From the NCBI RefSeq assembly GCF_003334305.1, contig NZ_QOWS01000002.1: a DNA stretch of 64,000 nt; one strand, 5' to 3'. Within the stretch, counting starts at the first letter, position 1; the number at the start of each line of letters is the position of its first letter. This DNA is from Escherichia coli (GTDB lineage: Bacteria; Pseudomonadota; Gammaproteobacteria; Enterobacterales; Enterobacteriaceae). Below are positions 53,801 to 56,800 of the stretch, piece after piece. The position numbers are program-made.

Positions 53801-56800
53801 GTCTTCGGCAGGGATCTCGAAATAGGTTGATTGTTCGGTTGCAAGGACAAAAGTACGAAAAAATTGTAGCGCTCTGTCATCATAAGTTAGCTGAAATTTT
53901 GATGTGCCTTTGTCGAATACGGCCTGTAAAACGTCATCTCGCTCGTGCAGGCGCAAATCAAATAATTCCATTCCCGCTTTGCCAAAACGGCGAGCAGGCG
54001 CGTAATCGCACAGCAGCTCAACAATATTATAGTGCCGTGGATCCTGGCATATAGCCCGATATATCATTTTAACCTGTTCTTCCGGACCTTCCAGAAGCTG
54101 GAAAAAATGAGAACCATTAAACAGTAAGATCCCTGTTACGTCAGACTGCATGTTCCTGCGATTTGCTATCGAAACCATTTCTTCGATTTTTTTGACAGGT
54201 TCGTCGTCACGTATATGGCTACGATAAATAAGGGTGGTAAGCATTAACAATCCAGGGTAATGGGTGAGGCGAGAGTAAGACGGTAACAGACATATCTTCT
54301 TGTGTCTTTCTTTTAATACCAAAACATAACCGTTTCTTTACATTGATAAAAAATGGAAAAAGTTGAACACTAGTTGGCGAAAAATCTTGTATAGATTGTC
54401 AGTTAAATGATGCAATATGTTTTATCATAACACATTGTTTTATATGCATTAGCACTAATTGCAAAAAATTAATTTATCATTCTGTACACATATTTCGTAC
54501 AAGTTTGCTATTGTTACCTCACTTAACATTGATTAACATTTTTAACAGAGGCGTAGCATGCATCAAAATTCAGTGACTTTAGATTCTGCGGGAGCAATCA
54601 CTCGTTACTTTGCAAAAGCTAACTTGCCTACTCAGCAGGAAACTCTCGGGGAAATTGTGACTGAGATTTTGAAAGATGGACGTAATCTGAGTCGAAAGTC
54701 GCTTTGTGCCAAACTTCTTTGCCGACTGGAACACGCGACTGGGGAAGAGGAACAGAAACATTATAATGCACTAATTGGGTTGCTTTTTGAATAATGCAAC
54801 AGCCTGATTATTTAACAGGTTAGCTATGAAGTCGTTATGAAGACATCTGATAATGAACGTATAAAATATGAAATTACTGGCCAGGCGGTGATCCAGATAC
54901 TGCGCATGAAGATAAATTTTTCATTGCAGACTCTTATTAAGCAATTACTCGTAATGAAATCGGCTGAGGAAGATGCTTTCCGACGCGATTTAATTGACAG
55001 CATAATTCGTGATTTTAGCAATAGTGATTCAGGAGGGCCAAACCGAAGAACAGCGACAGCTGACAATAAAAGTATGTTCAATGGTAAGAAAATAAACAGA
55101 ATACATTAAAATTTCATAAGTAAGATGAGAGGTTACCATGCTTGAAGATACTACAATTCATAATGCAATAACTGATAAAGCGTTAGCAAGTTACTTTCGC
55201 AGTTCGGGTAATTTGTTAGAAGAAGAGTCAGCAGTGTTAGGGCAGGCTGTCACCAATTTAATGCTTTCAGGCGATAATGTTAATAATAAAAATATTATCT
55301 TAAGTCTGATACACTCCCTGGAAACAACAAGTGATATTCTCAAAGCTGATGTGATTAGAAAAACACTGGAAATCGTGTTGCGATACACAGCTGATGATAT
55401 GTAACTTCTAATTATTAAGTATAAGTTTATAGAAAACTCATTCATCTTATTTTTGTCTGTCGCTTTAGACTATACACAGCATAATTTTATTGGGTTAATA
55501 TTTCTACGAGGCTGACATGAATAATTCAATCCCAGAGAGATTTATTTTTCAATGTGCTTTGTTTAAAAATCTCGAGAGGGAGGTGTTCATGACGCATGGG
55601 TATGTTGATAGTCATATTATTGATCAGGCTTTACGCTTGCGTTTAAAAGATGAAACCAGTGTGATTCTTTCTGATCTCTATCTGCAAATATTGCAGTACA
55701 TTGAAATGCATAAGACTACACTAACGGATATCATTATTAATGACAGGGAATCCGTGCTCTCTTAGAACTTGAGTAAGGTTTTAGAATAAACATCAGCTGT
55801 ATCACCATGCTGATGCAAAGTGAGCATTTCAGGCGTTATGCTTTCTTATTATGTCCGCAATATCAGGTGTCAAGAATGGAGAGTTCTCGCTCTCCATTCT
55901 TGACGCCTGATATCCCGCCTAACTTATTTTGTACTGCCTACATTATGCTCAATAATTAATGGGTTAGATCAAGATGGAGAAAATTTTATCTTCGGCGTGG
56001 ATATTTCTTATGCTCTCTACCATGCTCTCTGTAGATGCCAGCGCGAGCGAATGAATGGCATTTTCATGTATTAAACCCTTTGGCCGGGACAAGCAAATGC
56101 GCAATACACTCATACCCATCCTCGTTGCGATATGCTTGTTTATTACCGGTGTCGCTATTTTGAACATCCAGCTCTGGTATTCCGCAAAAGCAGAGTACCT
56201 GGCGGGAGCGAGATATGCCGCCAACAATATCAATCATATACTTGAAGAAGCGTCACAAGCGACTCAAACAGCGGTTAACATTGCCGGGAAGGAATGCAAC
56301 CTCGAGGAGCAATATCAGCTTGGCACTGAAGCAGCTCTGAAACCTCACCTGCGCACAATCATCATTCTCAAACAGGGAATAGTCTGGTGTACATCCCTGC
56401 CTGGGAATCGGGTCCTGTTGTCTCGTATTCCTGTTTTCCCGGACAGTAATTTACTGTTGGCTCCAGCAATCGACACCGTTAATAGATTACCTATCCTGCT
56501 CTATCAGAACCAATTTGCAGATACGCGCATTTTGGTTACGATAAGTGATCAACATATTCGCGGGGCGCTTAATGTACCCTTGAAAGGGGTAAGGTATGTA
56601 TTACGCGTGGCGGATGACATTATTGGACCAACGGGTGATGTGATGACGCTTAATGGACATTATCCCTATACCGAGAAGGTTCACTCCACAAAATATCATT
56701 TCACTATTATCTTTAACCCGCCGCCACTCTTTAGCTTCTACAGACTTATCGATAAAGGCTTTGGAATTTTAATATTTATTCTGTTAATCGCCTGCGCCGC

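What the first reader, a model, noticed from the sequence alone, without database searches (positions are those of the whole stretch)
55860..55913. Unusually long near-perfect hairpin between ymgC and pdeG
A 24-bp stem with a 6-nt loop, perfect apart from one G-U wobble, lies about 95 nt after the ymgC stop and about 185 nt before the pdeG start. It is not followed by a U-run and is not GC-rich like REP elements. A duplex of this length is a potential RNase III substrate and could also be an operon-end stabiliser, a transcriptional roadblock or attenuator for pdeG, a palindromic protein-binding site, or a relic of a miniature inverted-repeat element. A tiny ORF (MESSRSPFLTP) spans the loop.
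Basis: seen in the sequence. Interest (0 to 1): 0.5.

Follow-up and report, generated by a model that had tools for sequence, protein, structure and literature searches.

The report
Long single-copy hairpin after ymgC
The 24-bp hairpin between ymgC and pdeG in E. coli K-12 is real, single-copy and not a known repeat or RNA family, and it is most likely an ordinary U-less stem-loop that caps the 3' end of the ycgZ-ymgABC mRNA, made unusually perfect only in the K-12-like lineage.

Summary
Window 55860-55883 pairs with 55890-55913: 24 bp, one T·G wobble, RNA dG -44.5 kcal/mol, z about -11. It is the longest stem in the 64-kb window.

It occurs once per E. coli genome. I found no copies in plasmids, phages or other species, and no Rfam match, so a MITE or REP origin is rejected. 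It is not an intrinsic terminator, because no U-tract follows it.

Across 12 haplotypes from genomes and metagenomes, only a 14-bp upper helix with a 4-nt loop is universal (100% paired, varying only through G·U). B2-like strains and a divergent clade carry a 7x3 internal loop. The perfect 24-bp form is therefore derived in the K-12-like clade, by a 4-nt deletion and a G>T change. Rare variants then turn the wobble into C-G or U-A.

Best reading (confidence about 0.4): a protective 3'-end stem-loop for the Rho-terminated ycgZ-ymgABC transcript. It lies sense-strand, 94 nt after the stop, with no U-run and C>G just downstream. No 3' end has been mapped there.

RNase III cleavage of the K-12 form is plausible but rests on one weak, coarse data point. 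A published RNA-polymerase SELEX study places the predicted pdeG -35 (TTGACG) inside the right arm.

Interest is modest. I file it as a new member of a known kind.

The parts
55860..55883 (+). Left arm of the hairpin (24 nt)
   Evidence: Inverted repeat found; folds.
55884..55889 (+). Loop, TTCTCG. U55884·G55889 can close it to a 4-nt loop, and B2-like and divergent alleles have C-G at that pair.
   Evidence: It is the most variable part of the element.
55890..55913 (+). Right arm of the hairpin (24 nt)
55871..55902 (+). Conserved core: a 14-bp upper helix (55871-55884 paired with 55889-55902) and a 4-nt loop, present in every haplotype.
   Evidence: 100% of cells are paired in 12 haplotypes, and 5 pairs vary only through G·U. 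Searches give the folds of the divergent alleles.
55868..55870 (+). TGT, which pairs with ACG at 55903-55905. This is the derived, zipped-up segment. Other lineages carry 7 nt here (GGGCAAA, GAGCCAA, GGTTAAA or GTTTAAA) and so form a 7x3 internal loop.
   Evidence: Alignments; tree; divergent clade.
55860..55867 (+). Lower helix, left side (ATATCAGG). It pairs with CCTGATAT at 55906-55913 and is mostly conserved.
   Evidence: the lower helix as defined there (11 pairs, columns 1-11 with 48-58) is 87.9% paired.
55914..55960 (+). Stretch with C over G immediately 3' of the stem; a possible Rho-loading region.
   Evidence: 55900-55959 has C 15 and G 7. This matches the feature reported for Rho-dependent 3' ends.
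55900..55930 (+). Published predicted pdeG (ycgG) promoter TTGACG-19-TATTTT. The -35 (55900-55905) lies in the right arm and the -10 is at 55925-55930.
   Evidence: Shimada et al. 2014, PMC3946193: RpoD-holoenzyme SELEX peak in the ymgC>ycgG spacer, also flagged H-NS. My scan with 16-18-nt spacers did not recover it. No TSS for the region was found in the Cappable-seq supplementary files held as text.

Best explanation
The element is a sense-strand RNA stem-loop in the 3' untranslated tail of the ycgZ-ymgA-ariR-ymgC mRNA.

Proposed mechanism (inferred, not shown):
1. Transcription from the ycgZ promoter runs past the ymgC stop codon.
2. Because there is no intrinsic terminator, transcription is ended by Rho, which loads on the untranslated C-rich RNA just beyond the hairpin.
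3. 3'-to-5' exonucleases (PNPase, RNase II) trim the RNA back to the base of the stem. This gives a discrete, stabilised operon mRNA and separates it from pdeG.

The functional core is the 14-bp upper helix with its 4-nt loop, together with a short lower helix. The fully zipped 24-bp duplex of K-12 is a recent lineage-specific derivative. It arose by a 4-nt deletion at a CAA repeat plus a G>T change, followed in rare strains by conversion of the U·G wobble to C-G or U-A. That derived form additionally makes the RNA long enough to be an RNase III substrate.
For: Shown here:
- The hairpin is real and exceptional.
- It lies 94 nt after the stop of the last gene of the operon, on the strand on which that operon is transcribed.
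- No intrinsic terminator is found anywhere in 55400-56300.
- No U-run follows the stem, and C exceeds G immediately downstream (C 15, G 7 in 55900-55959).
- Every E. coli haplotype retains a stable + strand fold, -26 to -44.5 kcal/mol.
- The upper helix is 100% paired in 12 haplotypes, and all 5 variable pairs change through G·U.
- + strand pairing is 94.7% of cells, against 86.3% by my tally for the - strand.
- The loop is the most variable part, while the arms vary about as much as the flanks yet stay paired.

From the literature:
- ycgZ-ymgABC is a single polycistronic mRNA by Northern blot (PMC3509220).
- ymgC mRNA was not detectably polyadenylated and served as a negative control in that study (PMC1636475). 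This would fit a transcript without an intrinsic terminator; that link is my inference.
[quoted passage not shown] C>G is enriched downstream, and the stem-loops protect against PNPase and RNase II (PMC6061677).
Against: - No 3' end is listed at or near the hairpin in the one Term-seq data set I could read (PMC7815308: nothing between 1203751 and 1218619). This is a weak test, because those were standard laboratory cultures and, from my own knowledge of the Tschowri et al. 2009 work (not read here), the operon is induced by cold and blue light.
- Formal covariation is not significant (101 of 500 shuffles reach the observed score, and no pair changes on both sides).
- By my event count, transitions preserving + strand pairing outnumber those breaking it only 6-7 to 2. 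That difference is not significant.
- In Res13-type and L020-type alleles the - strand folds slightly better than the + strand.
- A divergent ymgC lineage (L013) has no comparable hairpin after ymgC. Homology to K-12 stops about 25 nt before the hairpin, so the hairpin is not an obligatory part of the ymgC 3' UTR.
- The C>G stretch is short.
Confidence: 0.4

Rival explanations
1. RNase III processing site. The 24-25-bp duplex of the K-12-type RNA is cut by RNase III on read-through transcripts. This uncouples ymgC from pdeG and sets the stability of one or both fragments. It can coexist with the best explanation.
For: - The duplex length of 24-25 bp meets the roughly 22-bp groove of the RNase III dimer (PMC6212723).
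- Gordon et al. 2017 list a putative RNase III-dependent position in the ymgC-ycgG spacer at MG1655 1217246 (window 56005). It has 41 reads in the rnc deletion against 0 and 1 in the two wild-type replicates (PMC5371410).
Against: - That site is 92 nt downstream of the stem. [quoted passage not shown] - The supplementary tables of the nucleotide-resolution RNase III map were not available.
- Most non-K-12-like lineages have only a 14-bp helix, an internal loop and an 8-bp helix. If RNase III cleavage is the function, it is not the conserved one.
- I did not score the sequence preferences around cleavage sites.
Confidence: 0.2
2. No selected function for the long duplex. A neutral quasi-palindrome in fast-evolving intergenic DNA became perfect through mutation alone (replication slippage, or intrastrand template switching that corrects quasi-palindromes). 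The conserved pairing simply reflects recent common ancestry.
For: - Arm sequence diversity is about equal to that of the flanking spacer (29% segregating sites against 25-40%).
- Covariation is not significant.
- The differences between the K-12 and B2-like alleles cluster in 10 nt of the left arm and all increase complementarity.
- Both possible corrections of the T·G mismatch exist as rare variants: L074 C-G, and L048/L085 T-A. Template-switch correction predicts exactly this (my knowledge of quasi-palindrome mutagenesis in E. coli).
- The 4-nt deletion sits at a CAA(A)CAA direct repeat.
- The spacer tolerates IS3, IS4-family and Tn7-like insertions, one of them inside the left arm.
Against: - The upper 14-bp helix is 100% paired in all 12 haplotypes, including a clade 7-8% divergent in flanking DNA. 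The loop between its arms changed at 4 of 6 positions.
- All variation in that helix passes through G·U, which is tolerated in + strand RNA but is a mismatch in DNA.
- A template switch would give C, not T, at 55868.
Confidence: 0.25
3. DNA-level element of the pdeG control region. The right arm carries the -35 of a sigma-70 pdeG promoter and the left arm carries a mirror TTGACA on the other strand. The palindrome would be a site for RNA polymerase, H-NS or a dimeric regulator, or would modulate the promoter by cruciform extrusion.
For: - Genomic SELEX with RpoD holoenzyme gave a peak in the ymgC>ycgG spacer. It is flagged as H-NS-bound, with the predicted promoter TTGACG-19-TATTTT (PMC3946193). 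TTGACG is 55900-55905, in the right arm.
- TTGACA is the reverse complement of 55868-55873.
- TTGACG is present in all 12 haplotypes of alignment A3; one divergent-clade genome fetched later (L102) lacks its A.
Against: - The promoter is a sequence prediction within a SELEX fragment. Its 19-nt spacer is non-optimal.
- The scan with 16-18-nt spacers finds no promoter here.
- The predicted -10 is not conserved in B2-like alleles, which have TTTGTTTAAT.
- The - strand TTGACA is absent from B2-like alleles.
- No TSS for the region was found in the Cappable-seq supplementary files held as text.
- Arms of 24 bp are far longer than known operator half-sites.
Confidence: 0.1

Closest known systems
U-less stem-loops at the steady-state 3' ends of Rho-dependent E. 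coli transcripts (Dar and Sorek 2018, PMC6061677)
   Same: It is a stable stem-loop downstream of the last gene of an operon, on the sense strand. No U-tract follows it, and there is a mild C-over-G bias immediately downstream.
   Different: No mapped 3' end and no bicyclomycin or exonuclease data exist for this locus. The K-12 stem (24-25 bp, -44.5 kcal/mol) is far longer than typical terminator-like stems; Dar and Sorek report stem and loop length distributions like those of intrinsic terminators.
Intramolecular RNase III substrates (for example the pnp and rnc leaders and rRNA processing stems; rules in Altuvia et al. 2018, PMC6212723)
   Same: The K-12 allele offers a continuous duplex of at least 22 bp in an mRNA spacer between two genes. 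There is a weak hint of rnc-dependent RNA abundance in the same spacer.
   Different: Cleavage inside the stem has not been shown. Most lineages have an interrupted stem. Sequence preferences were not scored.
Quasi-palindromes corrected by template-switch mutation in E. coli (Ripley model; thyA and lacZ quasi-palindrome hotspots; cited from my own knowledge)
   Same: The differences between alleles are clustered, all raise complementarity, and both directions of mismatch correction are seen in nature.
   Different: This concerns how the sequence arose, not what it does. The T at 55868 is not the templated base. Slippage plus point mutation explains the data equally well.
REP/BIME, ERIC/IRU and other repeated extragenic palindromes or MITEs of enterobacteria
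   Same: It is a palindromic, extragenic sequence lying between two genes transcribed in the same direction.
   Different: It is single-copy in 4,954 E. coli genomes and absent from other species, plasmids and phages. It is not GC-rich, and it has no target-site duplication.

Membership tests
Intrinsic (Rho-independent) terminator | G+C-rich stem-loop immediately followed by a U-tract | tested here: not met
   The terminator scan found 0 sites in 55400-56300. The sequence after the stem is CCCGCCTAACTTATTTTG. Stem GC content is 0.44.
Repeated extragenic palindrome or MITE (REP/BIME, ERIC and similar) | Multiple dispersed copies per genome, or copies in other genomes | tested here: not met
   - blastn with 11-nt words against 5,426 complete E. 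coli genomes found one locus per genome. The reported 2 'places' are most likely the two strands of the palindrome at the same locus.
- Plasmid hits are all non-mobilizable Escherichia records, several of chromosome size, so most likely mislabelled chromosome pieces.
- Phages gave nothing significant.
- An exact arm pattern scanned over 100,044 species representatives gave 5 matches, none in Escherichia, in unrelated taxa and consistent with chance.
- A covariance-model search of the window found only the element itself.
Repeated extragenic palindrome or MITE | Target-site duplication flanking terminal inverted repeats | tested here: not met
   The flanks are ...TCCGCA | hairpin | CCCGCC.... 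Only an offset CCGC is shared, and there is no clean direct repeat.
Protective 3' stem-loop of a Rho-dependent transcript | Stable stem-loop downstream of the gene on the sense strand, without a U-tract | tested here: met
   Every haplotype folds on the + strand at -26 to -44.5 kcal/mol.
Protective 3' stem-loop of a Rho-dependent transcript | C-over-G enrichment just downstream (rut-like) | tested here: met
   55900-55959 has C 15 and G 7. The neighbouring windows are near parity. The stretch is short, so this is weak support.
Protective 3' stem-loop of a Rho-dependent transcript | Steady-state RNA 3' end maps immediately after the stem, with read-through on Rho inhibition | tested here: inconclusive
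   The only readable Term-seq and bicyclomycin tables (PMC7815308) list no 3' end in 1203751-1218619. Those were standard laboratory cultures, and the operon is known (my own knowledge) to be induced by cold and blue light. Other data sets were not held.
RNase III substrate | Continuous dsRNA of about 22 bp or more | tested here: met
   K-12-type has 24-25 bp. It is not met in B2-like and divergent alleles, which have 14 bp, an internal loop and 7-8 bp.
RNase III substrate | rnc-dependent cleavage within the stem in vivo or in vitro | tested here: inconclusive
   The only evidence is a low-count, coarse site 92 nt downstream in Gordon et al. 2017. The nucleotide-resolution tables were not available.
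Any curated RNA family (Rfam 15) | Covariance-model match at or near the gathering score | tested here: not met
   No match overlaps the hairpin even at E up to 10.
Sigma-70 promoter of pdeG overlapping the right arm | -35 and -10 hexamers with a 16-18-nt spacer, and a mapped TSS | tested here: inconclusive
   The published prediction TTGACG-19-TATTTT comes from a SELEX fragment. My scan did not find it. The -10 is not conserved in B2-like alleles. No TSS was found in the Cappable-seq files held.
Structured RNA under selection (covariation test) | Compensatory double changes beyond the shuffled expectation | tested here: inconclusive
   94.7% of cells are paired, but 0 pairs change on both sides relative to the commonest pair. 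The covariation score of 0.118 is reached by 101 of 500 shuffles. Pair 55883:55890 shows the series G-C, G·U, A-U, and pair 55868:55905 shows U·G, C-G, U-A and G×G.

The most novel reading that the evidence does not exclude
The palindrome is a dual-layer insulator and switch between two signalling modules. As RNA, it ends and stabilises the cold- and blue-light-induced ycgZ-ymgABC message; in K-12-like strains it has evolved into an RNase III-cleaved duplex. As DNA, its right arm is the -35 of the H-NS-silenced pdeG promoter. Read-through transcription, hairpin formation or cruciform extrusion would then couple expression of the Rcs-connector operon to that of a c-di-GMP phosphodiesterase. The stepwise zipping of the stem in one E. 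coli clade would be adaptive tuning of that coupling.
Probability: 0.06. Interest if true: 0.6.

Novelty: new member of a known kind. Interest (0 to 1): 0.3.

Why it matters
If the main reading holds, this locus is a clean natural example of how an operon without an intrinsic terminator gets a defined 3' end. It also comes with a ready-made allelic series: an interrupted stem, a wobble-containing stem and two fully perfect stems. That series could be used to measure how stem length and perfection affect mRNA 3'-end protection, Rho read-through into the downstream c-di-GMP phosphodiesterase gene, and the threshold at which RNase III begins to cut.

It also documents a natural quasi-palindrome progressing toward perfection within one species. 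None of this overturns current understanding. The element is unannotated, but it is of a familiar type.

Tried and rejected
- MITE or repeat family: rejected. It is single-copy.
- Intrinsic terminator: rejected. There is no U-tract.
- Known RNA family: none.
- Coding potential of the loop-spanning ORF: rejected. Its ATG is buried in the stem, no Shine-Dalgarno sequence is evident, and the - strand has a mirror ORF purely from symmetry.
- Outgroup search by YmgC protein in species-representative genomes: found nothing. YmgC is essentially E. coli-only. The one strongly divergent ymgC lineage (L013/L014) lacks both the hairpin and pdeG downstream, so it cannot polarise the changes.
- Transcript-end and start data: Term-seq tables show no 3' end here. 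Files for several other studies were not held. Cappable-seq and SMRT-Cappable-seq files had no entry for the region. The Tschowri 2009 paper with the Northern blot could not be read.
- Strand asymmetry as proof of RNA-level selection: + strand pairing is better overall (94.7% against 86.3%). It is not better in every allele, and the difference is not significant by my event count.
- Lower sequence diversity of the small ORF upstream of pdeG: discounted, because 32 nt of it were fixed by my metagenome search pattern.
- Loci excluded as unreliable: L018 (coverage 2.8) and L019 and L038 (indel-rich) were not used as haplotypes. L093 (coverage 1.3, a possible chimera) was kept in alignment A3 and the pair counts, but I draw no conclusion from it alone.
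Full report

Yes. The window is E. coli K-12. The ymgC-pdeG spacer is 100% identical to W3110. MG1655 coordinates are window + 1,161,241, so the element is 1217101-1217154.

- The repeat finder gives arms 55860-55883 and 55890-55913: 24 nt, 96% complementary, 6 nt apart. The only non-Watson-Crick pair is T55868·G55905.
- As RNA, the + strand folds at -44.5 kcal/mol against -13.3 ± 2.7 for shuffles (z -11.7). The - strand gives -44.5 (z -10.2). As DNA the fold is -25.8 (z -10.9).
- Of 15,982 sliding 76-nt folds across the window on both strands, it ranks second. 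The only better window is a three-hairpin GC-rich region.
- It contains the longest perfect short-loop inverted repeat in the window.
- No T-run follows the stem, and the terminator scan finds nothing in 55400-56300.
- The MESSRSPFLTP ORF exists (ATG 55876-55878). The - strand carries a mirror ORF (MESENSPFLTP...), so the ORF is a consequence of the palindrome.

**2. Is it a copy of something?**

No.

- A sensitive blastn of 55855-55918 against 5,426 complete E. coli genomes hits 4,954 of them, at one locus each. The median of two 'places' is most likely the two strands of the palindrome.
- Plasmid hits are non-mobilizable Escherichia records, several of chromosome size, most likely mislabelled chromosome pieces. 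Phage hits are insignificant.
- An exact arm pattern over 100,044 species-representative genomes gives five matches. All are in unrelated taxa, consistent with chance, and none is in Escherichia.
- Rfam has nothing, even at E = 10.
- A covariance model built from the allele alignment finds only the element itself in the window.
- The arm sequence appears in no E. coli paper in the searchable library.

The MITE or repeat reading is rejected.

**3. Variation across E. coli**

I collected alleles from complete genomes. Further alleles came from contigs encoding variant YmgC proteins. A metagenome scan anchored 60 nt downstream of the hairpin, so that it was blind to the hairpin's state, gave 79 more loci. 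Twelve haplotypes were aligned; one of them, L093, comes from a contig with 1.3x coverage and may be a chimera.

- The K-12 form (identity at least 95% in about 3,200 complete genomes) is the only common long, uninterrupted one.
- About 1,670 genomes (80-90% band) carry B2-like alleles. In these the left arm reads ATATCAGG-GGGCAAA-CAGGAATGGAGAG. That gives an 8-bp lower helix, a 7x3 internal loop and a 14-bp upper helix with three G·U pairs.
- A clade of about 20 genomes, 7-8% divergent over 2.6 kb, has the same interrupted architecture with a different loop, CUAU.
- All alleles still fold on the + strand at -26 to -32 kcal/mol.

Counting pairs on the alignment:
- The upper helix (55871-55884 with 55889-55902) is paired in 100% of cells. 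Five of its pairs vary, always through G·U.
- The lower helix as defined (11 pairs, which include the three variable middle pairs) is 87.9% paired.
- Pair 55883:55890 shows G-C, G·U and A-U. Pair 55868:55905 shows U·G, C-G (L074), U-A (L048 and L085) and G×G.
- Formal covariation is not significant: 101 of 500 shuffles reach the score.
- Pairing is better read as + strand RNA (94.7% of cells) than as - strand RNA (86.3%, my tally) or as DNA (85.3%). By independent events the excess is only 6-7 against 2.
- Segregating-site density in the arms (29%) equals that of the flanking spacer (25-40%), and the loop is the most variable part at 67%. The sample was chosen for hairpin variants, which biases these figures.

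**4. Direction of change**

- A neighbour-joining tree of the 650 nt upstream places all uninterrupted alleles (K-12, L074, L085, Res13-type) in one clade. That clade is nested among interrupted alleles, and the divergent L020 clade is outermost.
- The interrupted form is therefore probably ancestral, and the 24-bp duplex derived.
- The simplest path starts with a 4-nt deletion at the CAA(A)CAA direct repeat. A G>T change at 55868 then turns G×G into U·G. In rare strains the wobble is finally fixed to C-G or U-A.
- This progressive zipping fits either selection for a stronger RNA helix or quasi-palindrome correction by template switching (my own knowledge). The templated base at 55868 would be C, not the observed T.
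- Recombination is evident (L053; L093 may be an assembly chimera). The polarity is an inference.

**5. Context**

- The hairpin lies just outside the segment shared with the one strongly divergent ymgC lineage (L013/L014, 82% protein identity).
- There, homology stops about 25 nt before the hairpin. The downstream genes are homologues of cybB, gapC and aldA, and no comparable stem-loop is present.
- YmgC is essentially confined to E. coli. Published work says the same of ymgC, ycgG and ymgF (PMC3509220).
- The spacer is a recurrent target of mobile DNA:
  - IS3 inside the left arm in strain A29;
  - an IS4-family element 48 nt after ymgC in an O177:H21 strain;
  - a Tn7-like element ending just upstream of pdeG in ST540.

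**6. What does it do?**

No direct data exist for this locus.

Evidence bearing on a 3'-end role:
- ycgZ-ymgABC is one polycistronic mRNA by Northern blot (PMC3509220).
- ymgC mRNA was not detectably polyadenylated and was used as a negative control (PMC1636475). This would fit a transcript that lacks an intrinsic terminator; that link is my inference.
- In E. coli, Rho-dependent transcripts end precisely after stable stem-loops that lack U-tracts. C>G is enriched downstream, and the stem-loops protect against PNPase and RNase II (PMC6061677).
- The anatomy here matches: sense strand, 94 nt after the stop, no U-run, and C 15 against G 7 in 55900-55959.
- I therefore rank 'protective 3'-end stem-loop of a Rho-terminated operon mRNA' first, at confidence 0.4.
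- The Term-seq tables I could read show no 3' end here (PMC7815308). Those were standard laboratory cultures, and from my own knowledge the operon is induced by cold and blue light.

RNase III:
- The K-12 duplex meets the roughly 22-bp size requirement (PMC6212723).
- Gordon et al. list an rnc-dependent position in this spacer at window 56005, with 41 reads against 0 and 1 (PMC5371410).
- That position is 92 nt downstream, low-count and coarse.
- The interrupted alleles would be poorer or single-strand substrates.
- I treat this as a possible lineage-specific add-on, at confidence 0.2.

DNA-level reading:
- RpoD-holoenzyme SELEX gave a peak in this spacer, flagged as H-NS-bound, with the predicted promoter TTGACG-19-TATTTT (PMC3946193).
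- TTGACG is 55900-55905, in the right arm. If the promoter is real, pdeG's own mRNA starts after the hairpin, which argues against a pdeG leader attenuator.
- The prediction is weak. The spacer is 19 nt, the -10 is not conserved in B2-like alleles, my scan finds no promoter, and no TSS was found.

Neutral origin:
- A purely neutral, mutation-driven palindrome remains a serious rival, at confidence 0.25.

**7. Comparison with known kinds, and verdict**

- It is not an intrinsic terminator, not a REP, ERIC or MITE element, and not an Rfam family. Defining features of each were tested and not met.
- It works most like the U-less 3' stem-loops of Rho-dependent transcripts. Three structural criteria are met, and the defining 3'-end mapping is missing.
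- The K-12 allele additionally resembles an intramolecular RNase III substrate.
- The element is unannotated in RefSeq, but it is of a familiar type. The most interesting aspect is the natural allelic series from an interrupted to a fully perfect stem.
- Interest is 0.3. Novelty is 'new member of a known kind'.

Noticed in passing
window 52878-52915: A 14-bp perfect palindrome, ATACTTTGTACAAT-N10-ATTGTACAAAGTAT, is the second-longest short-loop inverted repeat in the window. It lies between the bluF stop (53033) and the bluR start (52828). From memory, the TTGTACA half-sites recall MerR-family (MlrA/BluR-type) operators. It could be a bluR operator or the end of the bluF transcript.
   Followed up: no
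window 55974-56054: A small hydrophobic ORF (MEKILSSAWIFLMLSTMLSVDASASE) lies upstream of the annotated pdeG start at 56097. Its TGA abuts an upstream in-frame ATG at 56055 that would extend pdeG to 521 aa. Its ATG is TTG in many B2-like alleles. It contains a 12-bp tandem repeat (ATGCTCTCTACC / ATGCTCTCTGTA) that is duplicated in strain ES9 and reduced by 12 bp in A29. Its apparent low diversity is an artefact of my search anchor.
   Followed up: partly
window 56005 (MG1655 1217246): Gordon et al. 2017 Table S1 lists this position in the ymgC-ycgG spacer as a putative RNase III-dependent site. It has 41 reads in the rnc deletion against 0 and 1 in wild type. Counts are low and the location is coarse.
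   Followed up: partly
L005 (strain A29), L100 (O177:H21), L101 (ST540): the ymgC-pdeG spacer: There are independent mobile-element insertions in this spacer. IS3 sits inside the left arm of the hairpin. An IS4-family ISVsa5 sits 48 nt after the ymgC stop, with a second copy inside pdeG. A Tn7-like element ends about 40 nt upstream of pdeG. These could affect pdeG expression.
   Followed up: partly
L013 and L014 (GCA_017278115.1 and a Logan contig): A ymgC allele only 82% identical in protein is followed by homologues of cybB, gapC and aldA, not by pdeG. Homology to K-12 ends about 70 nt after the stop codon, and the 400 nt after that have no close match in 5,426 complete E. coli genomes. This suggests that the ymg module sits at a different chromosomal site in a divergent Escherichia lineage.
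   Followed up: partly
L002 (strain Eco889) and similar B2-like loci, pdeG 5' region: Many B2-like strains carry the N-terminally deleted pdeG allele. RefSeq annotates it as an incomplete pseudogene, and the literature describes it as ycgG2, an active short phosphodiesterase (PMC6385356). The hairpin is retained upstream of it.
   Followed up: no
window 1385-1564: A cluster of several strong GC-rich hairpins gives the most stable 76-nt folds in the window (-45.2 and -41.5 kcal/mol). It is possibly a REP/BIME-type cluster, but I did not examine it.
   Followed up: no
MG1655 1218619-1218730, - strand (window about 57378-57489): The Adams et al. 2021 supplementary tables list RNA 3' ends antisense to pdeG at 1218619 and 1218676, plus a further antisense entry at 1218730 in a second table. 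These indicate an antisense transcript inside pdeG.
   Followed up: no
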